Part shown: one piece after another, positions 11,271-64,000 of the stretch
Numbering within the stretch: the first letter of the stretch is position 1
How the letters are laid out: every line of letters begins with the position of its first letter
NCBI GenBank assembly: GCA_016182915.1
Contig: JACPFP010000002.1
Coordinates: 155,188-219,187, forward strand
Length of the DNA: 64,000 nt
Origin: Candidatus Dojkabacteria bacterium
Lineage (GTDB): Bacteria > Patescibacteriota > Dojkabacteria > SC72
Reading direction: 5' to 3'
The notes under the pieces: generated by a model
Seen by the model: only the letters and a program-made list of their open reading frames with translations
What the model was told of the DNA's origin: nothing
Database searches by the model: none
Translations under genes and position numbers: made by a program

Positions 11271-12097
11271 TGTATTTCTATAATATATCTATTTAAATCA
11301 TAGTAGTTAACTGAGATTTCAATACTGGAGGTAATGGATGAGGAAGCAGGATCTCGATCAAGATCCTTAATCCTTCCGAGAACAAGATAGCTCCCTATCT
11401 TAGGGTCATTTGTTATTACAAAATCGCCATCTGCGACCCCTTTATCAGTACTTATATTCTCGACTGATACCCAATCTCCCTTCCCTATCGCAACTGCTTT
11501 GGATTTCGTCTTTTCCGAAACCAGTCTCTTCAGTTGATCAGTATTTAAACCCTCAATATTAGTTGGTTTAATAACTGAGACCTGGATAAAACTGGATCTA
11601 TTATATGGGAGTTTAACTGTTCCTGAAGACCTATCCAAGCTATCAATAAATCCAACATAATACTGACCATATTGAACAACCCCTCCCTTTTTAACTCCGT
11701 TGTCACTACCTAAATCAATATAGCCAATCTCCAATCCCTCTCCCATGAACATATTTACTTCGGAGTATTTTGATTTCTTTGCAAGAAACCTTTCAGACTT
11801 TTTAAGTTGAGTATTCTCTTCTATTAGGAATGATATGGTATCCAGTTGAGATTTAAGCGTTGAGTTTTCGTCACGAAGTTTTTCATTTTCATTCTTTATC
11901 TCAATTATTTCTGAAAAAAGGGTGAAGTAGTTCTTGACCTGCCTACCGTTAACCACTTGATCGTGAGAAGTATTTGTATATACATACGAAATATAATTCC
12001 TTAGCCAGCTCATCTGAGAGCTTAAAAAAAGAAGAATTACGCTTAGGACAAGAAAGAAAAGTATATATAATTTATTTTCATTCTGATTACTCTCCAT
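11267..12097 (-). CDS. mreC: rod shape-determining protein MreC
   Basis: N-terminal TM helix, coiled-coil region and C-terminal beta domain. 4-bp overlap with mreD, directly downstream of mreB. Confidence 0.7.
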   Translation of the reverse strand: MESNQNENKLYILFFLVLSVILLFLSSQMSWLRNYISYVYTNTSHDQVVNGRQVKNYFTLFSEIIEIKNENEKLRDENSTLKSQLDTISFLIEENTQLKKSERFLAKKSKYSEVNMFMGEGLEIGYIDLGSDNGVKKGGVVQYGQYYVGFIDSLDRSSGTVKLPYNRSSFIQVSVIKPTNIEGLNTDQLKRLVSEKTKSKAVAIGKGDWVSVENISTDKGVADGDFVITNDPKIGSYLVLGRIKDLDRDPASSSITSSIEISVNYYDLNRYIIEIQ

Positions 12098-49856: not shown

Positions 49857-52463
49857 TTACATCTGCTCTACTGTATCTATCCCTAGAATATAAAGGGCTT
49901 TCTTAAGAATCTCAGTTGTAATATATACAAGCCTTAGTCTACTCTCTTTTACGTTTAAATCTCTCTCATTCTGAATATTGAATTCCCCATAGAATTTATT
50001 AAAGGATTCTGACAACTCATAGATATATCTGCAAAGAAGATGCGGAGATATATTATTTGCCGCATTCTTCACGAGTTCAGGATATTCACCTATCTTCTTT
50101 AATAGCTCTATCTCAACTTCACTATTAAGGACCTTATCCAATTCTAATTCCTTACTTCTAAATTCATACTTACAATTTCTTAGAATACTTAAACCTCTCG
50201 CATATGAATAGAGGATATATGGAGCCGCAAAGCCTGTCATACTCATAAACTTATCTATATCCCAGTTGATATCCTTATGAAGTTCATGTGAAAGTATTGC
50301 GAACTTCAGGGCCCCCATTGCAACAGTATGCGCAATTAAATCCTTCTCCTCATTACTATACCCTTTGTCTACACCTATACTCTTTCGAGCAATCTCCTCT
50401 GCCTCTGCTATAAGGTCAGTATATTTAACATTCTTTCCCGTTTTAGAACTCATCTTCTTGTTCTCGAAAAGCAACCATCCAAAACCAATATGCATATACT
50501 TTCCTTCAAGGTTAGGGAAGATAAGCTCGAGAGCTTTAATCATAGCCTTGAAGTATGCGTTCTGTTCTACTGACGTTGTTACAATGGCAAGATCTAAGGA
50601 AGGATAGTCAGTGAACTTTTTGACTGCTAAACCTAAGTCCTTACCAGAGTACGAAGGGAAACCGGCAGAGGTTAAGAACACCCATCTTTGAAGGCCATAT
50701 TTCTCGCCCTCAAAGATAACCGCTCCAGCATCCTTGGTAAAGACCTTTCCTATGTTCTCAGTTACAATCTCCTTCCCATTTTTCCATACAACAGATTCTG
50801 GATACTGTATATCATACTCAACTCCAAGCTCCTTAAATGCCTTATCCTGATGTTTGATACTAATCTCCCTTGTATATTCATAAAGCTCAATAATATTTTC
50901 ATCTGAGCGATTGTATATCTTCATATTTATATCTTTAACCTCTTCTAAAACATTCTCTTTCTCCGAAGACAGTTTTCTACCGAATACATACGATTGATCA
51001 AGATATCTAGCGGCTTCATCTATCCCCTTTTCCTTAACAATTTGGTCTAAACTCTCTTTAATTTCGGCAACATCCTCCTTTGAAAGCTTGCTATACCACG
51101 TCCCATTTCTGTTTATAACTCCCCATATACAGTTAGAGACCTGAAGACCAATATCCCCAAAGTAGTTAGCTTTGATTACATCGTATCCGAGATTGGCATA
51201 AAGTCTGGCAATTGGAAGACCTGTTACCGCACTTTTGAAGTGTCCTAGTTGTAGGGCTTTATGGGTGTTGGGCTGGCCAAACTCTACCATAACCTGTTTT
51301 CCCCTCCCGATATCTCCTTTTCCGTACTCCTCACTATAGCTATTTACAACGCTTTTAACCTCTTCACTCTTAATAAAGAAGTTTATATATCCTGGATTTA
51401 CGGTTTCAACTCTATCTATGAAATCAAGTTTCTTAATATTTCCGGCTAGTTCCTGCGCAATCTTAATTGGAGCCTTCTTAAGTTTTTCTGCAAGGTTCAT
51501 CGCTACTGTTGTAGAGTAGTCTCCAAACTTATTGTTATTATTTTTTATAATGACAACCCTATTCTTCCCTGCAAGAAGGTCTTTGGAAAGTGTAAGGACA
51601 GAGTCGTATACAATCACTTGTATCTTTTCCTCAATACTTCCTTCGTCATACTCGTAAGTCTTCTCCTCCTTCTTCTGAGCCTGTACTTTAACCTGGTCAA
51701 CTTTCTGAATTACAGGTATAGATACTCCTTCTATATCTTTAGACTTATAGTCGATTTCAACCTCGGGAGTTTCAATATCCAGGGTAATTACAAAACCTTT
51801 TCCTCCAAAGTTAGATGTTACATAATCTATAAATTCATTTGCCGCTTTCAATATATTTTTCTCGTTAATTCCTTTGAAACCATCCATAATGAAATATCCA
51901 TCTTTAGACTCCTCTGTTAGTTTTGTTCTTTCACACTGTCTCCAGTTTAACGAGAGGGTCGAAACATCATAATCATCGGCCCAGATAAGATCACCGATCT
52001 TTGGAGACTTAGCCTTTTCTTCTGAGATACCTAACCAATGTTCATCTCCTTTTGCAAACTTCATCACAAAATCACCGTAGACTTTGCTAAGATCCTCGCC
52101 ACCAAAAGGAGTAATGTACTTAATACTGAAGGAATTATATAGATCAACAATAGGATTAATTCTAGGAAGATTTCCACCCTCTACTACTCTTGATGCTAAA
52201 GCGAAATGTGTTGGTTTAGTTCTCTTAGGATTAGCCCCGAATTTCTCGAAGGCTTCAAAATACGCTTTTATGTATGGGTGGGAGACAATCTCATCACTCC
52301 CCTCTACTTCCTTTATAAGAGTCTTCTGAGCATTCTCTTTAAATTTTGTAAGGAGTTTCTCTTTATCTTCATTCCAACTATTATCAAATCCCTGAATAAT
52401 CGGGATTGCGACAAAAAGATCAGGGAATTTTTCGAATACCTCACTTTCAATTCTAAATTTCAT
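49857..52463 (-). CDS. argS: arginyl-tRNA synthetase fused to N-terminal B3/4 tRNA-binding domain
   Basis: C-terminal class I ArgRS (PNTHKALQLGH HIGH region, Arg_tRNA_synt_N-like segment, anticodon-binding tail). The N-terminal ~225 aa match the stand-alone B3/4 domain protein pattern (MKFRIESEVFEKFPDL..., LPRINPIVDLYNSFSIKYITPFGGEDL, WRQCERTKLTEESKD). 868 aa. Confidence 0.9.
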   Translation of the reverse strand: MKFRIESEVFEKFPDLFVAIPIIQGFDNSWNEDKEKLLTKFKENAQKTLIKEVEGSDEIVSHPYIKAYFEAFEKFGANPKRTKPTHFALASRVVEGGNLPRINPIVDLYNSFSIKYITPFGGEDLSKVYGDFVMKFAKGDEHWLGISEEKAKSPKIGDLIWADDYDVSTLSLNWRQCERTKLTEESKDGYFIMDGFKGINEKNILKAANEFIDYVTSNFGGKGFVITLDIETPEVEIDYKSKDIEGVSIPVIQKVDQVKVQAQKKEEKTYEYDEGSIEEKIQVIVYDSVLTLSKDLLAGKNRVVIIKNNNNKFGDYSTTVAMNLAEKLKKAPIKIAQELAGNIKKLDFIDRVETVNPGYINFFIKSEEVKSVVNSYSEEYGKGDIGRGKQVMVEFGQPNTHKALQLGHFKSAVTGLPIARLYANLGYDVIKANYFGDIGLQVSNCIWGVINRNGTWYSKLSKEDVAEIKESLDQIVKEKGIDEAARYLDQSYVFGRKLSSEKENVLEEVKDINMKIYNRSDENIIELYEYTREISIKHQDKAFKELGVEYDIQYPESVVWKNGKEIVTENIGKVFTKDAGAVIFEGEKYGLQRWVFLTSAGFPSYSGKDLGLAVKKFTDYPSLDLAIVTTSVEQNAYFKAMIKALELIFPNLEGKYMHIGFGWLLFENKKMSSKTGKNVKYTDLIAEAEEIARKSIGVDKGYSNEEKDLIAHTVAMGALKFAILSHELHKDINWDIDKFMSMTGFAAPYILYSYARGLSILRNCKYEFRSKELELDKVLNSEVEIELLKKIGEYPELVKNAANNISPHLLCRYIYELSESFNKFYGEFNIQNERDLNVKESRLRLVYITTEILKKALYILGIDTVEQM

Positions 52464-52485
52464 TTTTATACGACTTATTTATATG

Positions 52486-52559
52486 CGCGCCTGGAAGGAG
52501 TCGAACCCTCAACCCCTAGTTCCGAAGACTAGTGCTCTATCCAGTTGAGCTACAGGCGC
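52486..52559 (-). tRNA. tRNA-Arg (anticodon TCG)
   Basis: Reverse complement gives GCGCCTG...CTAGT-CTTCGGA-ACTAG...TTCGACT...CAGGCGC-G. Confidence 0.8.
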
Positions 52560-52638
52560 ATATTAAAAATACTATCTAATTTTTTAAGAACAATCTCTCT
52601 TTACTTCCATATTACACTACCGATCACATATTCATATG

Positions 52639-52712
52639 CGTACCTGAACGGAATCGAACCGTTAACCTTTGGTTCCGCAAACCAATGCTCTATCCAATTG
52701 AGCTACAGGTAC
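52639..52712 (-). tRNA. tRNA-Arg (anticodon GCG, unusual)
   Basis: Reverse complement gives GTACCTG...TTGGT-TTGCGGA-ACCAA...TTCGATT...CAGGTAC-G. Positions 34-36 read GCG. Confidence 0.7.
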
Positions 52713-52743
52713 ATGGGAAAATATAAGGATGGAAATTTTTAAA

Positions 52744-52820
52744 TGGCGTACCCGGCCGGAATCGAACCGACAACCTACTACTTAGAAGGCAGTTGCTCTA
52801 TCCAATTGAGCTACGGGTAC
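52744..52820 (-). tRNA. tRNA-Arg (anticodon TCT), CCA encoded
   Basis: Reverse complement gives GTACCCG...ACTGC-CTTCTAA-GTAGT (one G-U pair)...TTCGATT...CGGGTAC-G-CCA. Confidence 0.8.
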
Positions 52821-53419
52821 ATGCCATGGGTATTATATAACAAAAAACCCCATCCTTAAACCACATTACCTGTGATCTAGGGACGGAGTTACCGTGGTGC
52901 CACCCTACTTTACAAACTATATTATGATATAGCCTGACTTAATTACCTTCCCTACTTGCATAAATGCTTTCTTCGGGAGAAGACAAAAGCTCTTTTCTAC
53001 ATAACATACTATTAGGTTTACACTCTACCTAACTCACTATAAATATTGGTATGTATACTCTTCTTTATGTTTAGATTATATGAAAATTTTAGATCAATTA
53101 CAATATCTATTATGAATATCCCTAGATAAGGCGATGTATGTGTGAGTTCCACGGCTAATTTTAGGAAGTTTTACTTCGGATAGCGACCTTAGCTAAAGCG
53201 AAAAGTTTAACTCATCTTCCTCTATTCACGGAAGCCCTTCAAAAAAGGTAATTTCGACCTCAAGATGCGTGGAACTTAGCTCCAATTTTTATAGACTAAG
53301 GAGAAAGATACAAGACGAACCTTAGAAAGCTAGAGAGAGAGGATACCGGTATAATAAGAAAAGCCGGCGTTGAATCGTTTTGAACTTCGGCCCCTAATCA
53401 CCATGAAACATAAAGAGAA

Positions 53420-54589
53420 TTACTTCTCATTCAAAATCTTCTTTACGAGGTTGGAAATATCAAAAGCCTGTGCCTTTGAGATGCTCAAACCGGTGGGAAG
53501 ATTGATTATATGCCTTGAAATTTCCTCCGCAGTAGGACACTCACTCCACCTATACCCCATTGCTTCTATATTTGTGGATGCAGGATATACAAGGGGATTA
53601 TACCAGTTACCATAATATACATTTGCCTTATCTAAAGCCTTTTGCACTTTGTTTAGCACTTGATAATCATCAATAACCAGTGGGAAACGAACTGTAGAGA
53701 CTCCTCTTAAATGTGGAACACTCAAAGCACTAGCATATATATCGTTAATATATTCCCTGTGTGAAAGGTTTTCTTCAAGATCCTTCATTTGATCAAGTAT
53801 CACGTGCGAAAGAACATTAGGAAGTTTCCTGGGGTATCCGCTTGGCTTTATCCCTCTAAGTTCAGAACGGTAGAAACCCATATTTAGCAACCCAAGGCTA
53901 TTTAGAAAAAGTGAAACACCGGTTTGAAGACCCCTCAAGCTTCTAAGTCCCCTCCATACTACCGGATTAAGTAGCCAAAGGAACGTATCTATAATTCCAA
54001 GGTTCCTAATCTTTGAATACTCTCTATCTAACATAGGAATTAGCTCAGGATTATTTACAATTAATGCTCCACCCACTCTTGTTGAAAGAATCTTCTCAAT
54101 ACCAAAGCTGATAATAGCCGCATCACCCTTACTCCCCTGCTTATTATTTCCAAGTGAGTGAGCGCAGTCTTCCAACACATAAATCCCCTTAGATTTAGCA
54201 AACTTGAGCATTTCATCACTCAATCCACCAATACCAAAGGTATGCTGAGCAATCAGGACCTTTGTTCTTGTTGAAACCCTCTCCTTTAATGACTTAAAAT
54301 CCATACCGAAACTTTTAGGTGAGATATCAATGTACAGGGGGGTATGTTTTAGCCAAAGAATGGGGTTAACAACTGCATTACAGGTAAAAGCTTGAATTGC
54401 TACCTCTGTATCTAAAGGTAAATCAAGAGCTTTGAGGAAGAGATACTCAGCACTTCTCGCATTAGAAAATAGATATACTCTTTTAGCACCGTACATACTG
54501 CCAAGACTTTTCTCCAAACGACTACTGTAGTCCCCTTTATAGTACCTGGTAAAGCCAAATATCATCTTCAAATACTCGAGGTTCTGCAT
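53420..54589 (-). CDS. DegT/DnrJ/EryC1/StrS family PLP-dependent sugar aminotransferase
   Basis: Fold-type I aminotransferase pattern, including a SFGIEKILSTRVGGALI Lys-containing segment. Confidence 0.85.
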   Translation of the reverse strand: MQNLEYLKMIFGFTRYYKGDYSSRLEKSLGSMYGAKRVYLFSNARSAEYLFLKALDLPLDTEVAIQAFTCNAVVNPILWLKHTPLYIDISPKSFGMDFKSLKERVSTRTKVLIAQHTFGIGGLSDEMLKFAKSKGIYVLEDCAHSLGNNKQGSKGDAAIISFGIEKILSTRVGGALIVNNPELIPMLDREYSKIRNLGIIDTFLWLLNPVVWRGLRSLRGLQTGVSLFLNSLGLLNMGFYRSELRGIKPSGYPRKLPNVLSHVILDQMKDLEENLSHREYINDIYASALSVPHLRGVSTVRFPLVIDDYQVLNKVQKALDKANVYYGNWYNPLVYPASTNIEAMGYRWSECPTAEEISRHIINLPTGLSISKAQAFDISNLVKKILNEK

Positions 54590-54630
54590 CCAATTAATTT
54601 ACAATTTTATATAATACATTATACAACCCT

Positions 54631-55458
54631 TTACTCCAGATTGATAACTATATCCCCTGCTTTAACAGTATCAATATGTTTAATTCCAAGAGTATTAAAC
54701 CTCGATAGAGTTTCATTCCCAGGATGACCGTAACTGTTATCCTTACCATAACTACATATAACTAGTGAGGGAGATAAATATTCCAAAAATCTATATGAGG
54801 AGGAGCTGTTAGAGCAGTGATGACCCGCTTTGAGTATTTCTATGTCACTTGGTATAGCTTTACTGCTAATTAGCGATACCTCTCTCTCCGTTTCAACATC
54901 TCCGACATAGAGAATCCTCCTCCCCTTATCGTCCAACTCCAACACAACAGAGGAATTATTAACATCCTTCTGTGATTCAAAACATTTTTCAACAGTTTCT
55001 CCATAACTTACTGAATATCCATTACTATCTACATTAACCTTAATATAGTCGGAGTATATAACATCAGTCCTCTCACTGAGGTTATCGATAAGGTATCTCA
55101 AGGTATCATTGTTTACACAGGAAGTGGGAAGTACTAGATGTCTTATTCTATATCTCTTCACAACCTCAACTAAACCAAGCATATGATCTTCATGTGGATG
55201 TGTTAGTACTACATAATCTATTTCTTGATTAACATTTAGATACTTTTGAAGCTTTTGGACGAAAAAAGAATCAGGTCCTCCATCAATTAAGATCTCAACC
55301 TCATCAGACAGTTTAATTAATGAGGCATCCCCCTGTCCTACATCAAAAAATATAAGCCTTGGATATATACCTTGATCGTATAACAGTATACTATATAGGA
55401 TAGAGGATATAAGCAAGAGGAACATAAACCTGCTAGTACTGGATGCTAAGCCCATCAT
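54631..55458 (-). CDS. comEC: ComEC C-terminal metallo-beta-lactamase domain (separate ORF)
   Basis: HPHEDH and DVGQGD MBL motifs. The start overlaps the stop of the upstream comEC membrane ORF by ATGA. Confidence 0.75.
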   Translation of the reverse strand: MMGLASSTSRFMFLLLISSILYSILLYDQGIYPRLIFFDVGQGDASLIKLSDEVEILIDGGPDSFFVQKLQKYLNVNQEIDYVVLTHPHEDHMLGLVEVVKRYRIRHLVLPTSCVNNDTLRYLIDNLSERTDVIYSDYIKVNVDSNGYSVSYGETVEKCFESQKDVNNSSVVLELDDKGRRILYVGDVETEREVSLISSKAIPSDIEILKAGHHCSNSSSSYRFLEYLSPSLVICSYGKDNSYGHPGNETLSRFNTLGIKHIDTVKAGDIVINLE

Positions 55459-56945
55459 CGTAACACCACACTAATATCAGTCCTCATTCTAGCGAGAGAT
55501 ACTAGCAAAAGAGCGATTAACAGTATAACCGGTAATAGATAGCCCATATCAATTGCGGCGAGCTTCAGTTTACCACCGAATTCAACAACTATGCCTGTTG
55601 TGACGAATAGAATGCTAATTATTTTTGCAATAATTATACTTATATTCACTGAAATCTCTCTAAGAAACATATACATTATTCCCAGTGGCATCATAAACTC
55701 GAGAGTGCTTAATACTAGAAAATTAGTTATCACAGATATAGTTGAGACACTTCCAAAGTTAATGCTTGAAACAGGCATAACTACAGCTGAGCATACTAAA
55801 GGTATTAATATCGCATCTGTAATATTAACCATCTTTTTTATTGCGGGAACTATAAAAACAATACCAAACGTTGCTAAAAATGATAGCTGAAAGCCAATAT
55901 CAAATAGATATAGGGGGTTGAATATTAGCATTGTAATACAAACTAGGAAAAGATTAAAAAGAGGCGGCAATGGATATCCAGCAAAGTTAGCCAGTATACC
56001 AAATACATTTGAGAGCATTGCTCGAAGTACCGAGGCCGTGTTACCTGCTATAAAACAGTAAAGTAGGACAATTGGTACTGAAAGAAACTTACGTAAACGC
56101 ACATTCAGAAAGAAAAATAGACTCTCTGTAAGAGATTGTACAAAAAGAATATTATAACCAGATGCTGCAACGATATGAGACAGACCTGTAGCCCTTATAG
56201 CGCTTTGAAACTCCTCTGTGTACACACGATCATCCCCAAACATAATACCAATTAACAGCGAGGCATTGGGTTCATCTAATCCCCTTTCTATCCCTCTTAC
56301 AATATGACTTTTGATTATATGTAAGGTAAATATTGAGAGTCCCTCCTTCCTCACACAATCGATATGAAATAATCTTACCTGCAAATAGGTGTTACTGTTA
56401 ATTAAATACTTTGAAAACCCATCATCTCCCATTACGAAAGTTGGATCTCCCTGAAAAACGCACCTACTTCCCTTCTCTACCTCTGGATATCTAGGGACTT
56501 GCATGTAGATATTCGCTCCATTTTTAAGTTTTCCCCATACAATCTGGTACCTTGATTTCTGTTTTACACGATTTCTAACCTCCACATAGTACCTCCCCAC
56601 CCTTAACTCATCCTCTACCACCTCATGCGCCTTCTCAATCTGATTATCTATCTTACCCTTAACTACTAATATCGAGATTCCTGAAACTATAATGGAAACA
56701 AGTAGGATATAACCCAATCTTTTAAAATCCCTTTTTATGACAAAAGGGAGAATCAAAAGAAAGAGAAAGAGTGTATACAATAGATATGGACCTCCTAACA
56801 ACAATTTAAGGCCTAAGGATATAAGCAGAAATATTAGAATAGGAATAACTATCAAAGGGTTTACTATTAAATGGTAGTAGTACCAATCAAACTCTTTTTT
56901 AAAACGAAGTGCTGTGGAGATTAAGAGCCTTCTAACTATAAACAT
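55455..56945 (-). CDS. comEC: ComEC/Rec2 membrane competence channel (DUF4131 plus competence domain)
   Basis: Polytopic protein with a competence-domain signature (LSHIVAASGYNILFV). 496 aa. Confidence 0.8.
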   Translation of the reverse strand: MFIVRRLLISTALRFKKEFDWYYYHLIVNPLIVIPILIFLLISLGLKLLLGGPYLLYTLFLFLLILPFVIKRDFKRLGYILLVSIIVSGISILVVKGKIDNQIEKAHEVVEDELRVGRYYVEVRNRVKQKSRYQIVWGKLKNGANIYMQVPRYPEVEKGSRCVFQGDPTFVMGDDGFSKYLINSNTYLQVRLFHIDCVRKEGLSIFTLHIIKSHIVRGIERGLDEPNASLLIGIMFGDDRVYTEEFQSAIRATGLSHIVAASGYNILFVQSLTESLFFFLNVRLRKFLSVPIVLLYCFIAGNTASVLRAMLSNVFGILANFAGYPLPPLFNLFLVCITMLIFNPLYLFDIGFQLSFLATFGIVFIVPAIKKMVNITDAILIPLVCSAVVMPVSSINFGSVSTISVITNFLVLSTLEFMMPLGIMYMFLREISVNISIIIAKIISILFVTTGIVVEFGGKLKLAAIDMGYLLPVILLIALLLVSLARMRTDISVVLR

Positions 56946-57583
56946 ATTGCATCTTTTATCTGCTCAAATAGTTTATCGCTTATCCCAGCCCTACTTTTTA
57001 CCTCCTCAGCTTTACTGTATGGACGAGAGGCCATAATCTTCTTTGCTGATACTTCTCCAATACCATTTAGATCTTCAAGCTCCTTTTGAGTTGCATTATT
57101 TAGACTCACACAACCCTTTTCTCCTTCAGAATCAATATAATCATCTAGTTTTAAGTCTGCAACAAATGGGACATGCTCACATTTCAAATCATCTTCGAAT
57201 GGAAAGTATAACTTCTGGTTTCCTGTAAGCTTTTCTGCCAGGTTTATTCTCTGTGATACATATCTAGAAGCGGCTAAACGGTTGAGCCCCCCAGAGGCAT
57301 CTAATGCCTCACTGATAATGCTTTGGTCTGTGAAACAATACACTCCCGGCTTGTTAACCGCTCCTGCGACCTCTACCGGAAAGGTGCAGACCTCTTCTTT
57401 AGCTATCCCTTTAACGCTTTCTTCCCCCTCCTGTCCTATATCTGAGATATCCAAAGTTACTTTCTCTTTACGAGTATCAAATATTGAATCTATCGGAAAG
57501 AAATATCCTAATCCATAGCCAAAGGCCACACCAAAGAGGAATACGATTGAATATATGTATATAGGTTTTAATTTGTGAGGCAT
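56936..57583 (-). CDS. comEA: ComEA-like DNA receptor (TM anchor, SLBB and helix-hairpin-helix)
   Basis: C-terminal HhH (SLNNATQKELEDLNGIGEVSAKKIMASRPY). Located upstream of comEC. Confidence 0.8.
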   Translation of the reverse strand: MPHKLKPIYIYSIVFLFGVAFGYGLGYFFPIDSIFDTRKEKVTLDISDIGQEGEESVKGIAKEEVCTFPVEVAGAVNKPGVYCFTDQSIISEALDASGGLNRLAASRYVSQRINLAEKLTGNQKLYFPFEDDLKCEHVPFVADLKLDDYIDSEGEKGCVSLNNATQKELEDLNGIGEVSAKKIMASRPYSKAEEVKSRAGISDKLFEQIKDAICL

Positions 57584-57620
57584 ACTTAATGATACCTCAC
57601 CGTGATGAAATCAAAATGAA

Positions 57621-58463
57621 CTACTGTGCGCTTATTACAATCTCCTGAATCTTCACCTTGGAAGTTGGTTGGGAACTTGAGTTAACGTTTACCGCCTCAA
57701 TCTTATCAACCGTCTCAAAACCAGAAACAACCTTTCCAAAGACAGTATGCTTTCCATTTAGATACTCACCTGTATATCTCTTTGTTGTAATGAAGAACTG
57801 AGAACCGTTTGTATTTGGACCTGAGTTAGCCATTGCAAGAACGTAGGGTTCAAACTTAGCTGCACTCTTCCCTGCTGTATATCTATAACCTAACTTCTCA
57901 TAGAATTCCTTAACGGAGATATTTAGATTGGCATTAATCTCACTACTTGTATAGAAAGAACGAAGGAAGGTAGCATCACTAACCTTCAAACTACCAAGCC
58001 CCATGGCATCAGCATCTATTTCGTCTTCAAAAGTATATCCAGGACCACCAGTTCCATCTCCGACAGGATCTCCTCCTTGTATCACAAAGTCTCTTACAAC
58101 CCTATGGAATGTTAAGCCATCGTAGAACTTCTCATTAGCAAGAAATGCAAAACTACCTACTGTTATAGGAGCTTCATCTTCGAAAAGGTCAACAACAATC
58201 TGTCCGTAATCTGTGTATATTGTAGCGGTATAATCCTTACTTGGATCTATCTGGTCAACCTGACTCAAGGTATACTTCTTCCCATTACCTCCGGTACCAA
58301 CAAGGTCATCAATTCCCCCATTAGTTAAATCGTCACTTATTGTGAAAATATTACCACCACTTGAAAAAACATATCCTAATATAAGTACCATACCTACTAT
58401 TCCTAATGATCCTAAAATTATTTTTTTGTGATCTTTGAATACATCACCAAGATTGAATCCCAT
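57621..58463 (-). CDS. membrane-anchored cyclophilin-type peptidyl-prolyl isomerase
   Basis: HRVVRDFVIQGGDP...GTGGPGYTFEDE cyclophilin core, with an N-terminal TM helix. Confidence 0.9.
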   Translation of the reverse strand: MGFNLGDVFKDHKKIILGSLGIVGMVLILGYVFSSGGNIFTISDDLTNGGIDDLVGTGGNGKKYTLSQVDQIDPSKDYTATIYTDYGQIVVDLFEDEAPITVGSFAFLANEKFYDGLTFHRVVRDFVIQGGDPVGDGTGGPGYTFEDEIDADAMGLGSLKVSDATFLRSFYTSSEINANLNISVKEFYEKLGYRYTAGKSAAKFEPYVLAMANSGPNTNGSQFFITTKRYTGEYLNGKHTVFGKVVSGFETVDKIEAVNVNSSSQPTSKVKIQEIVISAQ

Positions 58464-58485
58464 ATCAAAGTACTAATTAATTTAC

Positions 58486-61400
58486 CTATTTCTCGATTGT
58501 GAGTTTAACATAAATAACCCCACTAGTTTTATTATACACCTGAATAGTATTACTATCATAATATTCAAAGTAGTACTCAGAACCAAGTCCCTTAGAGGTA
58601 AAACCGTATCCTTGAGAGTTATCTGACTTAATTATATTGATAGATGATGGAGTCGCGTTGAAGTTATGATGAACCTTCAGACTTGAGTTTGGAGATATCC
58701 TTACCCATTCACTTCGGTATATTCCCTTCCCCCCTACAGATCCTGTACCATCTACACTAAATACCACCTCTCCCTTAACATTCTTAATAACAAACATGTC
58801 ATTTATACTGCTACCAATCTCAAGAACAAGACTGCCACTCTCAGATTTAAGATGTCCTGCAATCAACAGATCCCCTCCTACAGAGAGATTCCCTCCTGAA
58901 TCAGAAACGAGACTACCATTGCCGATATTTAGAAGATTACCATTTAAGATACCAAAGTTTGCACTTGTTCCTTCAATCCTATTTACAGAAACTTCTTTAT
59001 CTGTCTTCAGCGAGTCCCCTTCAATTGTCCAACCGCTACCTTCACCCCCTAATCTACCACCAGAGTAATCGGAGAGAAGACTTGCCATCTCATCGCTCAC
59101 CCATTGTGGTTGATACCAAACCACATCTACAAATGCCATAACCTTACCTATGTAAATTGAATCTGAAAGGGTCAAGTTATATGTATTCATAAGAGTACCC
59201 CTTAAGGAAGCCTCGAATGAGTCTACAGGGACCTTGAAGCAAGGCTTAGATTCATTCTGCCCTTTATCCGCTGGCCACTTAATATCAGATATTGTGTTAA
59301 CAGTAGTACACGAAGCATCGCTCCAATCAAATGTATCTTCGAGAGCTTTGGCAACTATAATTCCAGAATCATTTCGAGTAACTCCAATACCGTCTAAAGC
59401 AGAAGCTGTTATCACATCACCCTTCTCTACGCTTCTTCCTGCTGTCATTACTTTCACAGGCAATCTACCTATAAGCCCTATAGGCCTCGAGTTATCCTTA
59501 TTGTTATCGTTCATCAGTAATCCTGGTGAGGTTGAGACTACCCCCATAACTGATGCTACATTATCCGGGTTTGCTTTCTGAACTTCACCAATTGCATTAG
59601 GATCCAAACTCACAAGATCCCCTGCCTCAATGGACAGATCGCTTACCTCATACATTTCAGCTAGGTCAGCGCTCTGTACACTAGTATTATTAGCATAGAT
59701 TGTACCTGCAGTGGCTCCAGCACACGCATCGGCATTTGATTTAACACAAAGTGCACCTACAACTTTAAGTTCAACATCGGGAGTTGCATCCCCAATCCCT
59801 ACAAATCCACTTCCTCTATACACATTTCCTCCAACTTCAGTCCATCCAGAACCTAGTGCACTCGCTCCACCTGATGTTGTGACATTGATTCTTAAATCTT
59901 GAGTTTGTCCTGAGTAGTTATACAACCTTGTGGTATTAGCATCAGTATTTACTAGTTTATATCCAGTTTTCCATGTTAACTGTACATTATATAGCGTTGG
60001 CTTATAGCTCTCATTTGTTGTAGTAAATACCGCTCGATACTGAATATAATTATTTACTGTCGACGTAATAGTAGATCCGGAGCTGTTTCTTAATAGCCTT
60101 TCACCTTTCATATTATCCAGCTGAATAGTAGTACTTGTAGGGATAATTGTCATTCTAATCTTGGTGACAGCATTTCTTAATGATTTATCAACATCTCTAA
60201 TATCCCAGTATACTTTTTGCCATGTATTTGCCCTATCTATATTAATAGTTTCTTCGTTTTCTGTGGCAGAACTTTCTCCAAAACCTAGTTTTAGTATATT
60301 TCCTGTAGTACCTGAGTATACCCATGCAGATATATAATCGTAATTTGAAAGATCCGTTGAGGTTATAGTATCTTCAGCATAACCATTAGCAGAAGTTGAA
60401 ACAAACTTCGAAATATTTCCAACAGTCCCTTCATCTTCATCCTCACTATAATCAATATTTCGAGTAGCATCACCGTCGGCCACGACACTCTGATTAGTAA
60501 CCGTCCAGTCACCAACAGTATTCATATTATTCAAGTCGATGTAATTAGTGCCCTGTGTAACCGGTTTCCAAGCTTCCCAAGTTCCATCCGTACTATTATT
60601 TGACGCACCGGATCTAGTTTGGAATTGGATATCTCCATATCCGTTATCGTTGAAGTTCCACGCAAGATTTCCATAATCTGTTGCCTGGTATGTAGGGATT
60701 TCTTCTGAGACAAATACACCATAGTTATATCCCGGTATTGTTGTGGATGTGAAAGTAGGTGTTGTAGTACCTGTTGGGTTAGTAGCTGAATATACAGCAA
60801 TTCTTCCAACGCCTCCAGCTCCACCATTGGCAGCATAAGAACCACCGCCCATATTTCCTGCTCCACCACTTCCTCCTGAGGTAGTACTTGCAGTACCAAG
60901 GGACACACTATTTCCAACAACCTTTATAGATCCACCAGCACCACCACCACCACCTCCTCCTCCCCAACCTCCTGATCCTGCGGCAGTAGTTCCCGCACTT
61001 CCAGCTGAAGTTAGATACCCAGAAACTGAAACTGTACTACCAGCAATAAATACTATACCTCCTCCATCTCCTCCTATCCCTCCATTGTAACTAGTAGTGT
61101 TACTCATTCCTCCACCACCATTTCCTCCAGAAGCACCAAAAAAGAGCTTGGTCAAATCTGAATCTCCATAGGTACCACCACCACCTCCTCCCCCTGCATA
61201 ACCATAAGTACTAGCTATTGAATTACCTCCGGCACCGCTCTGATTAGTAGAACCATTCCATCCTCCATTATTTAGGGCTCCGACTCCACCACTTCCCCCT
61301 CCTCCATAACCACCACCACCTCCTCCTCCTCCAATTCCATAATTACTTGATGAAGACGCACCGCCTGCACCACCCGCTCCACCAACAGCAATACCAGCTC

Positions 61401-63348
61401 CACCCGTTGAGTTTATATATCCAGCCCCACCACCACCACCACACTTATTGTTTGTATACCCAGCATATTGAGTACCATTATTACCTCCAGCACCACCTCC
61501 AGAATCCCCTGGTGGCGCTACGTTACCCGCACAAAAGGCTTCCCCTCCATATGCATATGTTGCATAACCAGTTGCGGTTGTTGATGCGGCGTAACCCCTA
61601 GCCCAAGCTGACACAATTCCTGCAACAGATACAGTTCCCGTCGCTCTAAAGAAGATAACCCCGCCTTCTCCAGCACCATTATTTACTGCTCCTGTTGGTT
61701 GTACCCACTCGTCAGGAGAGAAAATAGTTCCAACTTCAACAGTTACATCTGTATAATTAGGTACTCTTTGCAACATAACAGTTTGATTACCTACACCTAG
61801 CCCTATATTTGTATCATCACTTGTACCATTTCCATAATACTTAGTTTTAGAGGTTGCGAAGTTTACTGTAGTGCCGGAAATACTACTAATACGCAATGTC
61901 TCATAATTACCTACGTTTGCATACTGCGTACCCGTACCTCTTAGATTTATTAACAATACTTCGTCGTTGACACTTAAACATCCTGTTGAAGAAGCACTTT
62001 CTAATACAGCGCTTGTATTATCTGGGAACGATGTGACACTGTAGTTAACAGCGTCACCACCATCGGCACATGATCGACCCGGAGTATTTGATACATTTAT
62101 ATTTACATTTGTACTTATTGTTCTAGCACCATCACTTCCATTTCCAAGGTCATTTACAGTATTTTGAGCTACTTGATTTGGTCCTACTAACGTTCTTAGC
62201 TTTTTGTAATCAACTAAAGGATATTCAGTCAAGGTAAGCCTGTTAGATTGGTAGAAGTCTACATCTACGAGATTTTTCACTCTATTTGCATCAATAGTGT
62301 ACGTTCCCGAAGGGTTAGTATATCCAACTGTAATTGCGGACAAAGTTGGAGTATTGGCAGTATTGGAAGTCGTTAATATTGCCCTATACTGTATGTAATC
62401 GTTAGCTGTAGAGGTTATGGTTGAGCCTCCTGGAGTTGTTAGGTAACTCTCTGCTTTAATACTATCGATATATGCAACTGTTGTATTAGTAGGGAGTGTA
62501 ACTCTGAACTTTGTTACTGCATCCCTTGATGTACCAGTTATTCCAGAAATATCCCAATATACTTTCTGCCATGTATTTATAGAATCAACACTAATTATTT
62601 TTTCCTGTTCTGTACCCGCTGACTCCCCAAATCCTAGCTTAATCGAATTCCCAGCAAAAGAAGATCTAACCCAAGCTGTGATATATGTATACGAAGAAAG
62701 GTCAACAGAAGGCGACAAAGTTGTCTCAGCGTATCCGTTAGCTAATGTTGCAGTTAGTTTTGTTATATTTCCACTAGTAAATTCATCTTCATCTTCGTGG
62801 TAATCAATGTTTCGAGTTATATCACCATCAGCAACAGTTACATTTGTTCCCGTGAAATCCGTATGTGTATTTAGATCGTTAATGACAAGTGAAGAGGTAG
62901 TCGGCTTCCAAGCTTCCCAAGTGCCATCTTTAGAATTTGGTGTTGCACCCGACCTTGTTTGCAATTGAATTTCTGTTCCAGAAGGGAGACTTTCAGTCCA
63001 ACCAATATTGCCATACGAAGTTGCATCTGGAGTGTGTACTTCCTTGCTTATATAAACGGCGTAGCTATTATATGAGAGCGTAAATGTTTGCTGAGCCGGT
63101 GAAGAAGTTCCAGAAATTGAATTGGAATAGTAGACTGCGATTCTTCCACTTCCACCGGTACCACCATTGGATGCTCCAGTACCATTTCCAGCAACACCTG
63201 CCCCTCCTCCAGCACCGTAAGCCGAAGTATTTGCGTTTACTGTAACTGAATTACCGACAAGTTTTATAGATCCACCAGCACCACCACCACCACCACCGCC
63301 TCCCAATATATATGGCACCACCACCATCTCCAGCGACCCCTCCACCAT
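58486..63348 (-). CDS. giant Gly-rich tandem-repeat surface protein, C-terminal 1620 aa
   Basis: Two ~760-aa internal repeats (QTRSGA..DGTWEAWKP... blocks) separated by poly-Gly/GGxGG tracts. C-terminal beta-rich domain with a tail-fibre-like GFVGIGDATPDVELKVVG motif. Confidence 0.7.
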   Translation of the reverse strand: MVEGSLEMVVVPYILGGGGGGGGAGGSIKLVGNSVTVNANTSAYGAGGGAGVAGNGTGASNGGTGGSGRIAVYYSNSISGTSSPAQQTFTLSYNSYAVYISKEVHTPDATSYGNIGWTESLPSGTEIQLQTRSGATPNSKDGTWEAWKPTTSSLVINDLNTHTDFTGTNVTVADGDITRNIDYHEDEDEFTSGNITKLTATLANGYAETTLSPSVDLSSYTYITAWVRSSFAGNSIKLGFGESAGTEQEKIISVDSINTWQKVYWDISGITGTSRDAVTKFRVTLPTNTTVAYIDSIKAESYLTTPGGSTITSTANDYIQYRAILTTSNTANTPTLSAITVGYTNPSGTYTIDANRVKNLVDVDFYQSNRLTLTEYPLVDYKKLRTLVGPNQVAQNTVNDLGNGSDGARTISTNVNINVSNTPGRSCADGGDAVNYSVTSFPDNTSAVLESASSTGCLSVNDEVLLINLRGTGTQYANVGNYETLRISSISGTTVNFATSKTKYYGNGTSDDTNIGLGVGNQTVMLQRVPNYTDVTVEVGTIFSPDEWVQPTGAVNNGAGEGGVIFFRATGTVSVAGIVSAWARGYAASTTATGYATYAYGGEAFCAGNVAPPGDSGGGAGGNNGTQYAGYTNNKCGGGGGAGYINSTGGAGIAVGGAGGAGGASSSSNYGIGGGGGGGGYGGGGSGGVGALNNGGWNGSTNQSGAGGNSIASTYGYAGGGGGGGTYGDSDLTKLFFGASGGNGGGGMSNTTSYNGGIGGDGGGIVFIAGSTVSVSGYLTSAGSAGTTAAGSGGWGGGGGGGGAGGSIKVVGNSVSLGTASTTSGGSGGAGNMGGGSYAANGGAGGVGRIAVYSATNPTGTTTPTFTSTTIPGYNYGVFVSEEIPTYQATDYGNLAWNFNDNGYGDIQFQTRSGASNNSTDGTWEAWKPVTQGTNYIDLNNMNTVGDWTVTNQSVVADGDATRNIDYSEDEDEGTVGNISKFVSTSANGYAEDTITSTDLSNYDYISAWVYSGTTGNILKLGFGESSATENEETINIDRANTWQKVYWDIRDVDKSLRNAVTKIRMTIIPTSTTIQLDNMKGERLLRNSSGSTITSTVNNYIQYRAVFTTTNESYKPTLYNVQLTWKTGYKLVNTDANTTRLYNYSGQTQDLRINVTTSGGASALGSGWTEVGGNVYRGSGFVGIGDATPDVELKVVGALCVKSNADACAGATAGTIYANNTSVQSADLAEMYEVSDLSIEAGDLVSLDPNAIGEVQKANPDNVASVMGVVSTSPGLLMNDNNKDNSRPIGLIGRLPVKVMTAGRSVEKGDVITASALDGIGVTRNDSGIIVAKALEDTFDWSDASCTTVNTISDIKWPADKGQNESKPCFKVPVDSFEASLRGTLMNTYNLTLSDSIYIGKVMAFVDVVWYQPQWVSDEMASLLSDYSGGRLGGEGSGWTIEGDSLKTDKEVSVNRIEGTSANFGILNGNLLNIGNGSLVSDSGGNLSVGGDLLIAGHLKSESGSLVLEIGSSINDMFVIKNVKGEVVFSVDGTGSVGGKGIYRSEWVRISPNSSLKVHHNFNATPSSINIIKSDNSQGYGFTSKGLGSEYYFEYYDSNTIQVYNKTSGVIYVKLTIEK

Positions 63349-63700
63349 AAGTAGTTACTCCACCAACCGTACCACCACCACCACCACCACCTGCAGATCC
63401 GAAATATAATTTAGTAATTGCTGTATCACCATATGTACCGCCACCACCACCACCGCCTCCATAACCATATGTAACTATATTTCCAACCCCACCGTTACCG
63501 CTTTGATTAGTAGAGCCATCTGTTCCAGTGTTATTATACGCACCAATTCCTCCAGTACCACCTCCTCCATAACCACCACCAGCACCACCTCCTCCAACAC
63601 CATAATTGTTTGCAGAACTACCACCACCAGCCCCACCAGCGCCACCTAGAGCTGTTCCACTACTGCCAGTTCCACTATATCCACCACCAGCACCTCCACC
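58700..63700. repeat. approx. 2.3-kb coding tandem repeats plus Gly-codon (GGN/CCACC) microrepeat tracts inside giant gene
   Basis: Protein-level duplication of ~760-aa units. Long runs of ccacc/ggtgg in 60.9-61.5 kb and 63.25-63.7 kb. Confidence 0.7.
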
Positions 63701-64000
63701 ACACTTGTTGTTTGTATAACCATTCCATGACGTTCCGTTGTTACCTCCAGCAGCACCTCCTGAATCCGAACCAGGAGCTCCATTTCCTGCACAGAATGCC
63801 TCTCCACCATATGCATATGAAGAATATAAAGCATTAGTTGTTGTGCCTAGATAACCTTTACCTGTAGCATGAATACTTCCAGCAATTGAGACTGATCCGG
63901 TTGCTCTAAAGAACATTATTCCTCCTTCGCCGGCCCCATTATTTACTGCTCCAGTTGGTTGGACCCAATCAGCTGGATAGAAAGTCGCCCCGGAATTAAC
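63251..64000 (-). CDS. upstream continuation of the same Gly-rich giant protein (different frame; extends beyond window end)
   Basis: Translation continues upstream of the annotated Met (…FYPADWVQPTGAVNNGAGEGGIMFFRATGS…) and reproduces a third copy of the repeat unit. It is frame-shifted relative to 58486-63348 within a CCACC/GGN homopolymeric tract. Confidence 0.6.
   Translation of the reverse strand, partial: VNSGATFYPADWVQPTGAVNNGAGEGGIMFFRATGSVSIAGSIHATGKGYLGTTTNALYSSYAYGGEAFCAGNGAPGSDSGGAAGGNNGTSWNGYTNNKCGGGAGGGYSGTGSSGTALGGAGGAGGGSSANNYGVGGGGAGGGYGGGGTGGIGAYNNTGTDGSTNQSGNGGVGNIVTYGYGGGGGGGGTYGDTAITKLYFGSAGGGGGGGTVGGVTTYGGGVAGDGGGAIYIGRRWWWWWCWWIYKTCR

What the first reader, a model, noticed from the sequence alone, without database searches (positions are those of the whole stretch)
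58486..64000. Giant (>1,850 aa) glycine-rich tandem-repeat protein with tail-fibre-like C-terminus, frame-disrupted in a CCACC homopolymeric tract
The protein consists of at least 2.5 copies of a ~760-aa unit. Each unit is a beta-rich module followed by ~180 aa of GGxGG/poly-Gly. It ends in a unique ~440-aa domain containing a G.VGIG..P..L.V.G motif reminiscent of phage tail-fibre/β-helix proteins. Around 63.25-63.35 kb the reading frame shifts by one nucleotide inside ggtggtggtgg repeats, producing the out-of-frame W-run RRWWWWWCWW, and ~25 residues present in the other repeat copy are missing. This could be phase variation by slipped-strand mispairing, a pseudogene, or assembly collapse of the repeats.
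Basis: seen in the sequence. Interest (0 to 1): 0.55.

Follow-up and report, generated by a model that had tools for sequence, protein, structure and literature searches.

The report
Giant phage-spike-like surface fibre gene, broken
This is the 3' two-thirds of a roughly 2,800-residue cell-surface fibre gene from an ultrasmall Dojkabacteria (CPR) bacterium; its end resembles a phage tail spike, it probably grips host-cell sugars, and in this assembly an ordinary 80-base deletion, not a switchable repeat, breaks it.

Summary
On the minus strand, one reading frame runs from the window edge to a stop at 63251. A 1,620-aa ORF (58486-63348, NCBI MBI2356687.1, Candidatus Dojkabacteria) continues in the +1 frame. 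The break is an exact 80-nt deletion at 63304/63305. It removes a 26-27-residue beta-rung that is kept by the paralogous copy, by the intact 2,821-aa ortholog and by 20 of 20 relatives checked.

The (GGT)6 tract is a triplet repeat and cannot change frame, so slipped-strand phase variation there is not supported. The two copies are only 71% identical, so repeat collapse is unlikely.

The gene has two units, not at least 2.5. Each unit has a ~475-aa glycine-rich solenoid-like domain, with no Pfam family and distant homology to the Myxococcus AgmC N-terminal domain. This is followed by a ~270-aa module containing a CBM-like jelly roll.

The C-terminus is tail-spike-like. Residues 97-285 match the phi29 gp12 ("preneck appendage") C-terminal auto-chaperone by sequence profile and by fold.

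The family is widespread in Patescibacteria and sits in conserved order: giant gene, cyclophilin, ComEA, ComEC. Most likely it is a host-adhesion fibre captured here as an inactivated allele. An assembly or strain-consensus artefact cannot be excluded without reads.

The parts
63251..64000 (-). Upstream reading frame, cut by the window edge. It holds 233 aa of the first Gly-rich solenoid domain (YG1), then 16 out-of-frame codons (RRWWWWWCWWIYKTCR) and a TAA at 63251-63253.
63302..63307 (-). Junction of the 80-nt deletion (between 63305 and 63304, +/-3 nt because of TTG microhomology). It causes a net +1 frame change.
   Evidence: Pairwise alignment with copy 2. The rung is present in the ortholog and in 20/20 relatives.
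63306..63313 (-). (AT)4 dinucleotide run directly 5' of the junction. It is the only non-triplet simple repeat at the site. One extra AT would restore the frame but not the missing rung.
   Evidence: sequence; the frame restoration is inference
63280..63297 (-). (GGT)6, read as (ACC)6 on the plus strand. It encodes poly-Gly in frame and the W-run out of frame. It is part of a 32-nt stretch identical in both copies.
   Evidence: The Logan contig L001 ends 2 nt inside the copy-2 occurrence of this stretch, overlapping it by k-1 = 30 nt (k=31 recalled from memory).
58486..63348 (-). 1,620-aa ORF as annotated in NCBI (MBI2356687.1, hypothetical protein HYV12_01360, Candidatus Dojkabacteria). Its first 15 residues are out-of-frame overlap, and it has no signal peptide.
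63133..63303 (-). Last two rungs of YG1 (GGGGGGGGAGGSIKLVGNSV...GRIAV), read in the ORF frame.
62317..63132 (-). X1: a 272-aa beta-sandwich module containing a CBM-like jelly roll.
   Evidence: Paralog of X2. The structural model was built for X2.
60733..62160 (-). YG2: a complete ~476-aa Gly-rich solenoid-like domain (LGNGSDG...GRIAVY). The beta-rich N-part lies at 61741-62160 and the 36%-Gly part at 60793-61740.
   Evidence: Model pLDDT 79.6, pTM 0.71. 1,073 library representatives at E<=1e-3. Distant AgmC_N homology.
59968..60792 (-). X2: a 275-aa module with a CBM-like beta-jelly roll.
   Evidence: Foldseek: CBM11 6r31, E=2.3e-6, TMt 0.63, plus CBM30, CBM16, CBM4 and CBM8.
59680..59967 (-). 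C-terminal connector (GYKLVNTDANTTRLYNYSG...) plus an optional insert carrying the motif GFVGIGDATPDVELKVVG (59755-59808).
59113..59679 (-). Domain resembling the phi29 gp12 ('preneck appendage') C-terminal auto-chaperone. It starts at ...VQSA/DLAEMYEV.
   Evidence: pLDDT about 90. PDB profile hits 3gqh, E=5e-4, and 28nb, E=0.016. Foldseek against PDB and BFVD. tblastn to phage structural, tail and fibre genes.
58489..59112 (-). Last 208 aa. It is beta-rich and lineage-specific (conserved only in close orthologs). The model has low confidence and the role is unknown; it may be a distal tip.
57621..58463 (-). Downstream neighbour: a cyclophilin PPIase with an N-terminal hydrophobic segment. ComEA, ComEC and MBL follow. 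The order is conserved next to the giant gene in at least 12 divergent loci.

Best explanation
The region is the 3' two-thirds of one gene for a secreted cell-surface fibre or adhesin of a Candidatus Dojkabacteria (Patescibacteria/CPR) bacterium.

By orthology, the full protein is about 2,800 aa. It has a Sec-type signal peptide and an ~830-aa N-terminal stalk with tail-fibre-like segments. Two tandem units follow. Each unit is a ~475-aa glycine-rich solenoid-like domain plus a ~270-aa module with a CBM-like jelly roll, which is a putative glycan binder. The 493-aa C-terminus has a core homologous to the phi29 gp12 tail-spike auto-chaperone.

Inferred mechanism: as in phage tail spikes and Bdellovibrio MAT fibres, the C-terminal chaperone domain nucleates folding, probably trimerisation, of the long beta-rich shaft after export. 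The CBM-like modules and the tip then bind host-cell surface polymers. The membrane-anchored cyclophilin that is always encoded next door may assist folding.

In this assembly the gene is inactivated by a single 80-nt deletion in the first Gly-rich domain. The deletion removes a universally conserved beta-rung and shifts the frame by +1. This would leave a truncated exported fragment and a 1,620-aa ORF with no export signal. It is a recent pseudogene or a strain-level null allele, not a reversible switch.

Shown: the anatomy, the deletion, the homologies and the synteny. Inferred: surface location, trimerisation, glycan binding and loss of function.
For: Deletion:
- Copy 1 lacks exactly 80 nt compared with copy 2.
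- The ortholog L020 and 20/20 relatives keep the rung GGGIVYIAxxSVTVSGxLxxxG.
- In the model of copy 2, that rung forms strands 384-394 and 397-399 at pLDDT 92-96.
- The rest of the gene is open, with 1,620 and at least 233 codons and no other lesion.

One gene by orthology:
- L020 (Dojkabacteria UBA2022) carries an intact 2,821-aa ORF with 66-71% identical modules.
- It shares the synteny LeuRS, giant gene, cyclophilin, ComEA, ComEC, MBL, DegT.
- It has an N-terminal hydrophobic signal sequence.

Family:
- 86 related loci were recovered, mostly with intact ORFs of 2,000-4,700 aa carrying 2-4 units.
- The YG domain has 1,073 representatives at E<=1e-3 and 670 at E<=1e-10, with up to 10 copies per protein.
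- Some family members carry prepilin N-termini.

C-terminus:
- gp12 auto-chaperone by profile and by fold.
- tblastn hits to phage genes annotated as tail fibre, minor tail, virion structural or baseplate proteins.
- The role of the gp12 C-domain in folding, and its removal afterwards, is described in PMC3357383 and PMC4690869.

X module: CBM-like fold.

Ortholog N-region: PHROG 'tail fiber protein', E=4.6e-10, and a weak hit to Bdello_MAT_N.

Context: adhesins are required for epibiotic growth in Saccharibacteria (PMC10633639).
Against: - No reads and no second assembly of the same species were found. The best relatives are 67-69% identical. The Logan contig from SRR12113422 stops 2.3 kb before the junction. 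The deletion could therefore be a minority allele or a local assembly error.
- The N-terminus of this genome's own gene lies outside the window.
- The gp12-like domain is not at the extreme C-terminus; 208 aa follow it. The residue before the conserved Asp is Ala here and varies among homologs, so cleavage is unproven.
- The hit to the MAT N-domain is weak (18 bits against a cutoff of 60) and is on the ortholog only.
- The Foldseek alignments of the Gly-rich domain to tail-spike beta-helices have rmsd above 20 A, and DSSP finds little regular structure in about 180 residues of it.
- Oligomeric state and ligand are untested.
Confidence: 0.6

Rival explanations
1. Assembly or consensus artefact. 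The real genome carries an intact, in-frame gene, and the 80-nt gap was introduced when a strain-variable, low-complexity region was assembled or polished.
For: - The lesion is the only defect in more than 5.5 kb of open frame.
- It lies 7 nt from a 32-nt stretch shared exactly by both copies, and a k=31 assembly of the same sample breaks there.
- About 5% of related MAG loci also show isolated frame breaks.
- Homolog P0022 ends in a similar W-rich out-of-frame tail.
Against: - The copies are only 71% identical, so they cannot collapse onto each other.
- The junction shows only 3 nt of microhomology and no shared k-mer that would let a de Bruijn graph skip 80 nt.
- The Logan contig is 100% identical to the window over 8,440 nt, so the base-level quality of the contig is good.
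Confidence: 0.28
2. Phase variation. A simple-sequence repeat at the site slips and switches the fibre on and off. The candidate is (AT)4 going to (AT)5, because the GGT tract cannot change frame.
For: An (AT)4 run abuts the junction. Adding one AT unit would rejoin the two frames, giving ...GGGAIYILGGGGGGGG... (inference). Surface adhesins are typical contingency genes (general knowledge).
Against: - (GGT)6 is a triplet repeat.
- (AT)4 is very short for a contingency tract, and copy 2 has no such run at this position.
- Even the 'on' form would lack a rung that is conserved in every relative.
- Frame breaks in relatives fall at other positions and are small deletions.
Confidence: 0.05
3. Programmed +1 ribosomal frameshift at GGG-AGG-C. 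This would produce a full-length protein lacking one rung.
For: The heptamer GGG AGG C formally allows tRNA-Gly to re-pair from GGG to GGA, as at Ty1-type +1 sites (from memory; inference only).
Against: - AGG is the second most used Arg codon in the window, at 11 per 1,000.
- A tRNA-Arg(CCT) gene is present, so there is no hungry codon.
- The ortholog and all relatives are in frame at this position.
- The site was created by a deletion.
Confidence: 0.02
4. Two separate functional genes: an N-terminal exported protein and an independent 1,620-aa protein.
For: NCBI annotates the 1,620-aa ORF as an ordinary CDS. An ATG at 63348 is preceded by GGAG-like sequence.
Against: - The split falls inside a single conserved domain.
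- The downstream ORF starts with 15 out-of-frame residues and has no signal peptide.
- The GGAG-like sequence is an expected by-product of Gly codons.
- Orthologs are single ORFs.
Confidence: 0.05

Closest known systems
Bacillus phage phi29 gp12 pre-neck appendage (tail spike) and its C-terminal auto-chaperone domain (PDB 3GQH, 3GQK, 3SUC)
   Same: - A long beta-rich shaft is followed by a ~165-190-aa beta domain that begins D-[FL]-A-E-x-[YF].
- The match holds by profile (E=5e-4) and by fold.
- In phi29 this domain is needed for folding and trimerisation and is then cut off (PMC3357383, PMC4690869).
   Different: - The protein here is chromosomal in a CPR bacterium and about 3 times longer.
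- The domain is followed by a further 208 aa.
- The Ser that precedes the cleavage-site Asp in gp12 (from memory) is Ala here and is not conserved in homologs.
- Cleavage, ATP dependence and trimerisation are untested.
Bdellovibrio bacteriovorus MAT (mosaic adhesive trimer) fibres (Caulton et al. 2024, PMC10769870)
   Same: - These are bacterial, not viral, cell-surface fibres built from phage tail-fibre-like parts.
- Their layout is a signal peptide, a conserved N-terminal beta-rich domain, a long shaft, variable binding modules and often a C-terminal intramolecular chaperone.
- They are used by a bacterium that lives off other bacteria to recognise surface glycans.
   Different: - The chaperone here is gp12-type, not S74; there is no PF13884 hit.
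- The shaft here is made of Gly-rich AgmC_N-like domains and CBM-like modules rather than beta-prisms.
- The similarity to MAT_N is weak (E=1.4e-3, 18 bits against a 60-bit cutoff) and is seen only in the ortholog's N-terminus, outside the window.
N-terminal domain of Myxococcus xanthus adventurous-gliding protein AgmC (NCBIfam NF047640)
   Same: The Gly-rich YG domain is homologous at domain level. The window unit scores E=2.3e-6. Eight of eight family members score E=1e-10 to 5e-28 across profile positions 23-403 of 412.
   Different: All scores (27-98 bits) are far below the 275-bit equivalog cutoff, so these proteins are not AgmC. No paper on AgmC was found in the library, so its mechanism is not available for comparison.
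Carbohydrate-binding modules with beta-jelly-roll fold (CBM11, CBM30, CBM16, CBM4, CBM8)
   Same: The X module model superposes on these (6r31, E=2.3e-6, TMt 0.63, rmsd 4.4 A).
   Different: Sequence identity is 10-16% with no Pfam hit. The jelly roll is nested in a second beta-sandwich. Sugar binding is untested.

Membership tests
phi29 gp12-type tail-spike C-terminal auto-chaperone | Sequence similarity to the solved domain | tested here: met
   Profile A4 against PDB: 3gqh 'Preneck appendage protein', E=5e-4, with DFAEYFE aligned to DLAEMYE. A tailspike chaperone domain D4 (28nb) scores E=0.016.
phi29 gp12-type tail-spike C-terminal auto-chaperone | Same fold | tested here: met
phi29 gp12-type tail-spike C-terminal auto-chaperone | Domain forms the extreme C-terminus | tested here: not met
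   208 further residues (58489-59112) follow the domain.
phi29 gp12-type tail-spike C-terminal auto-chaperone | Autocleavage at the Ser-Asp boundary after trimer assembly | tested here: inconclusive
   The Asp is nearly invariant (D101). The preceding residue is Ala here and varies in homologs (G, A, T, L, I or Q). Cleavage itself cannot be tested with these tools.
Peptidase S74 intramolecular chaperone (endosialidase / T5 pb1 type) | Match to PF13884 with the SDxxxK motif | tested here: not met
   No Pfam hit on the C-terminus even at E<=10. One distant homolog (P0099) carries PF13884 in addition to the gp12-like domain.
Bdellovibrio MAT fibre family | Signal peptide followed by the conserved ~130-aa N-terminal beta-rich domain | tested here: inconclusive
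   The N-terminus lies outside the window. Ortholog L020 has a hydrophobic N-terminal signal sequence and a hit to NF053851 at E=1.4e-3, 18.4 bits against a 60-bit cutoff.
Bdellovibrio MAT fibre family | Intertwined trimeric fibre on the cell surface | not testable with these tools
   Only monomer models could be built.
AgmC (NCBIfam NF047640, equivalog domain) | Score above the curated cutoff (275 bits) | tested here: not met
   The window unit scores 26.8 bits. Homologs score 41-98 bits. The relationship is domain-level homology only.
Pfam Gly_rich_2 (PF21722) | Match of the Gly-rich segment to the family profile | tested here: not met
   No hit at E<=10. In P0045 and P0052, PF21722 covers a different, N-terminal Gly-rich region, not the YG domain.
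Carbohydrate-binding module (beta-jelly roll) | Fold | tested here: met
   Foldseek hits to CBM11, CBM30, CBM16, CBM4 and CBM8, E=2e-6 to 3e-4, TMt 0.5-0.63.
Carbohydrate-binding module (beta-jelly roll) | Binds a glycan | not testable with these tools
   No sequence family match.
SSR-mediated phase-variable (contingency) gene | A frame-changing simple repeat (unit not a multiple of 3) of substantial length at the switch point | tested here: not met
   (GGT)6 has a 3-nt unit and (AT)4 has only 4 units. The lesion is an 80-nt deletion.
SSR-mediated phase-variable (contingency) gene | Repeat-length heterogeneity among reads or strains | not testable with these tools
   No reads are available and no near-identical second assembly was found.
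T9SS-secreted protein | C-terminal T9SS sorting domain | tested here: not met
   No Pfam or NCBIfam hit on the C-terminus.

The most novel reading that the evidence does not exclude
The gene represents a Patescibacteria-wide, undescribed class of giant host-recognition fibres. They would be phage-tail-spike-like cell-surface organelles assembled from three parts:
- an uncharacterised glycine-rich solenoid domain, distantly related to the AgmC gliding protein and present in at least 670 sequence clusters;
- CBM-like modules;
- a gp12-type intramolecular chaperone.

These genes are co-inherited with an exported cyclophilin and the ComEA/ComEC DNA-uptake genes. The fibres would determine which host cells CPR episymbionts attach to. 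Their frequent strain-level breakage (this window; WS6 GWF2_39_15) would reflect selection on host range.
Probability: 0.3. Interest if true: 0.7.

Novelty: new variant of a known kind. Interest (0 to 1): 0.45.

Why it matters
How CPR/Patescibacteria episymbionts recognise and hold on to their hosts is largely unknown beyond type IV pili. In the one genetically tractable lineage, adhesins are required for growth on the host (PMC10633639).

This family offers a concrete, widespread candidate with testable parts:
- a predicted glycan-binding module;
- a chaperone domain whose deletion should abolish folding;
- a conserved neighbouring PPIase.

It also defines a large glycine-rich domain family with at least 1,000 cluster representatives, no Pfam model and no solved structure.

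The frameshift itself matters mainly as an annotation caution. NCBI lists the 3' fragment as a normal 1,620-aa protein.

Tried and rejected
- **Exact look-up of the 1,620-aa ORF in the contig index:** not on record. The neighbouring cyclophilin gave only an 8.4-kb Logan contig that stops before the junction.
- **Genome and metagenome scans for the same species:** none was closer than 69%, so there is no independent check of the junction.
- **P0111:** it looked like a second genome with the same 1,620-aa ORF, but it is the window's own protein.
- **Family libraries:** Pfam gave nothing for any module of the giant; PHROGs gave nothing for the repeat unit and only weak hits (best E=0.003, function unknown) on the C-terminus. 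PF21722 Gly_rich_2 was rejected. S74 and T9SS were rejected.
- **PDB profile search with the unit alignment:** no hit.
- **Programmed +1 frameshift at GGG-AGG-C:** rejected because AGG is common and tRNA-Arg(CCT) is present.
- **Deletion between flanking GGT direct repeats:** rejected because the sequence between them is retained.
- **Prophage origin:** rejected because of housekeeping neighbours and conserved synteny.
- **Literature on AgmC:** none in the library.
Full report
**Observation**

The feature lies on the minus strand. A frame open from the window edge (64000) ends ...GGGAIYIGRRWWWWWCWWIYKTCR* at a TAA at 63251-63253. A 1,620-aa ORF (58486-63348) overlaps it in the +1 frame and begins MVEGSLEMVVVPYILGGGGGGGGAGGSIKL.

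Self-comparison of the DNA shows two diverged copies, 71% identical in the best segment. The offset is 2,260 nt before the break and 2,340 nt after it. A pairwise alignment shows that copy 1 lacks exactly 80 nt, between ...GCCATATATATT and GGGAGGCGGTGG.... That places the junction between window positions 63305 and 63304, +/-3 nt because of TTG microhomology.

The W-run is (GGT)6 (63280-63297) read out of frame. The tract is a triplet repeat, not a homopolymer, and the frame change occurs about 7 nt upstream of it, next to an (AT)4 run.

Joining the two frames gives 1,838 aa. Glycine is 18.5% overall and 36-38% in the two Gly-rich segments.

**Architecture**

In order, the window holds:
- G1, the C-terminal ~290 aa of a Gly-rich domain;
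- X1, 272 aa;
- a 55-aa linker;
- YG2, a complete ~476-aa domain made of a beta-rich part plus the Gly-rich part;
- X2, 275 aa;
- a 493-aa unique C-terminus.

That is about 1.7 repeat units in the window, not at least 2.5.

**Source and orthologs**

The ORF is identical to NCBI MBI2356687.1, hypothetical protein HYV12_01360 from Candidatus Dojkabacteria, on a 315,585-bp contig. Housekeeping genes and nine tRNAs surround it. A Logan contig from SRR12113422 is 100% identical to window 52513-60952. It ends inside the 32-nt stretch that the two copies share exactly, as expected for a k=31 graph (k recalled from memory, not from a tool).

A scan of one genome per species returned 34 related loci, all Patescibacteria-type MAGs. 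A metagenome scan returned 52 more. None is closer than 69%.

The best relative is L020 (Dojkabacteria UBA2022).
- It has one intact 2,821-aa ORF with the same neighbours: LeuRS, giant gene, cyclophilin, ComEA, ComEC, MBL, DegT.
- Its layout is a hydrophobic N-terminal signal sequence, an ~830-aa N-region, then YG-X-YG-X-C, so exactly two units.
- Most relatives are intact ORFs of 2,000-4,700 aa with 2-4 units.

**The lesion**

The missing 26-27 residues correspond to the rung ...IAGSTVSVSGYLTSAGSAGTTAAGSGGW of copy 2. L020 keeps this rung in both of its copies, and 20 of 20 relatives keep it in the equivalent first-unit position. In the structure model of copy 2 it forms strands 384-394 and 397-399 at pLDDT 92-96.

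So copy 1 carries a lineage-specific or assembly-specific deletion of a conserved core element plus a +1 shift. Four further points bear on how to read it:
- **No other defect.** Nothing else is broken in more than 5.5 kb.
- **Breaks in relatives.** Frame breaks occur in 6 of 86 related loci, about four of them independent. They fall at other positions, and in the one relative examined at sequence level (L011) both are small deletions. The WS6 GW2011_GWF2_39_15 ortholog has two.
- **Phase variation.** (GGT)n cannot change frame. One extra AT in (AT)4 would restore the frame but not the rung, and copy 2 has no such run at this position.
- **Programmed +1 shift at GGG-AGG-C.** This is disfavoured because AGG is common (11 per 1,000) and a tRNA-Arg(CCT) gene is present.

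Repeat collapse is unlikely at 71% identity with no shared k-mer at the deletion ends. A local assembly or consensus error in a strain-variable region cannot be excluded without reads.

**What the modules are**

No module of the giant gives a Pfam hit, and PHROGs gives nothing for the repeat unit and only weak hits (best E=0.003, function unknown) on the C-terminus.

The YG domain:
- An exhaustive search of 1.84 billion cluster representatives with one YG domain found 1,073 proteins at E<=1e-3, 670 at E<=1e-10 and 251 at E<=1e-30. Some are up to 7,697 aa long with up to 10 matched stretches.
- In shorter proteins the domain stands alone behind varied N-termini, including prepilin-type ones.
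- NCBIfam's AgmC N-terminal domain model matches the window unit weakly (E=2.3e-6). It matches 8 of 8 tested family members at E=1e-10 to 5e-28. All scores are far below the equivalog cutoff.

The AlphaFold model of YG2 plus X2 has pLDDT 79.6 and pTM 0.71. The Gly-rich stretch is partly very confident yet shows almost no DSSP-regular structure, apart from three terminal beta-rungs. In Foldseek, X matches CBM-type jelly rolls (CBM11 6r31, E=2.3e-6, TMt 0.63). YG aligns over 380-460 columns with phage tail-spike beta-helices such as CBA120 TSP4 and K2-2 TSP, but at rmsd above 20 A. I therefore call YG solenoid-like and leave its exact fold open.

**The C-terminus**

Only residues 100-285 were modelled with confidence, at pLDDT about 90. 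A profile of this region matches the phi29 gp12 'preneck appendage' C-terminal fragment (3gqh, E=5e-4), with gp12's DFAEYFE aligned to DLAEMYE. It also matches a tail-spike chaperone domain (28nb, E=0.016).

Fold and sequence searches agree:
- Foldseek against viral models gives 25 hits at E<=1e-3. They include 'Preneck appendage protein' (E=1.4e-9, TMt 0.66), tail proteins and tail spikes.
- Against PDB, the pre-mature gp12 structure 3suc appears at probability 0.90, among phage beta-tulip-like decoration proteins (fold name from memory).
- tblastn finds the domain in structural, tail or fibre genes of Pseudomonas PA5oct-like, Campylobacter, Agrobacterium and Sinorhizobium phages, at 34-39% identity.

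In phi29 this domain is required for folding and trimerisation and is then cleaved off (PMC3357383, PMC4690869). About 20 of the 34 genome loci place the same domain directly after the last X module.

The case here differs from gp12 in three ways:
- 208 further residues follow the domain.
- The residue before the conserved Asp is not Ser.
- No S74 domain is present.

It recurs in the N-region of orthologs.

**Ortholog N-region**

The N-region of L020, which lies outside the window, matches a PHROG annotated as tail fibre protein (E=4.6e-10). Residues 28-154 match weakly the N-domain model of Bdellovibrio MAT fibres (E=1.4e-3, below cutoff). MAT fibres are cell-surface, phage-like trimeric adhesins that bind prey glycans (PMC10769870).

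**Interpretation**

The gene most likely encodes an exported, tail-spike-like adhesion fibre of an episymbiotic CPR bacterium. As assembled here, it is a null allele caused by an 80-nt deletion.

The order giant gene, membrane-anchored cyclophilin, ComEA, ComEC, MBL is conserved in at least 12 loci whose neighbour proteins are only 30-74% identical. This suggests, but does not prove, functional coupling, for example PPIase-assisted folding.

Surface location, trimerisation, cleavage and glycan binding are inferences. The general kind, phage-like surface fibres with intramolecular chaperones, is known. The domain composition and the CPR setting appear undescribed in the papers I could search.

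Noticed in passing
window 49857-52463 (-) and 52485-52820: An 868-aa arginyl-tRNA synthetase carries an extra N-terminal B3_4 domain (PF03483, residues 70-198) ahead of the normal ArgRS domains. It sits directly beside three tRNA-Arg genes (anticodons TCG, GCG, TCT).
   Followed up: no
window 53420-58463 (-); L020 14645-19645: The order giant gene, TM-anchored cyclophilin, ComEA, ComEC (Competence domain) and a separate MBL ORF (4-nt overlap) is conserved in at least 12 divergent Patescibacteria loci, with neighbour proteins only 30-74% identical; a DegT aminotransferase follows in the five closest. ComEC is split into two ORFs in both the window and the ortholog.
   Followed up: partly
L011 / L061 (candidate division WS6 GW2011_GWF2_39_15), about 8792-8798 and 11311-11349: The ortholog in this published WS6 genome is broken twice by small frame-shifting deletions in non-repetitive parts of the Y domain. 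The gene is therefore disrupted independently in a second Dojkabacteria assembly.
   Followed up: partly
P0022 (840 aa, on a 35.6-kb ENA contig): This homolog has an N-terminus like the ortholog's. It ends in a W/C/R-rich out-of-frame tail (NDTCEWNWVSRWCWRYPRCLW) right at the start of its Gly-rich segment, which is another frame break in a Gly-codon region.
   Followed up: no
P0020, P0021, P0024, P0038 (PF07963); P0045, P0052: Stand-alone YG domains are fused to prepilin-type N-terminal methylation motifs. In Saccharibacteria proteins they are fused to a different Gly-rich domain (PF21722). This hints that the domain can also be displayed on type IV pilus-like filaments.
   Followed up: no
P0099 (535 aa): A distant homolog combines the gp12-like domain (residues 3-171) with a DUF5011 Ig-like domain and a Peptidase_S74 chaperone, so two different tail-spike chaperone types occur in one protein.
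   Followed up: no
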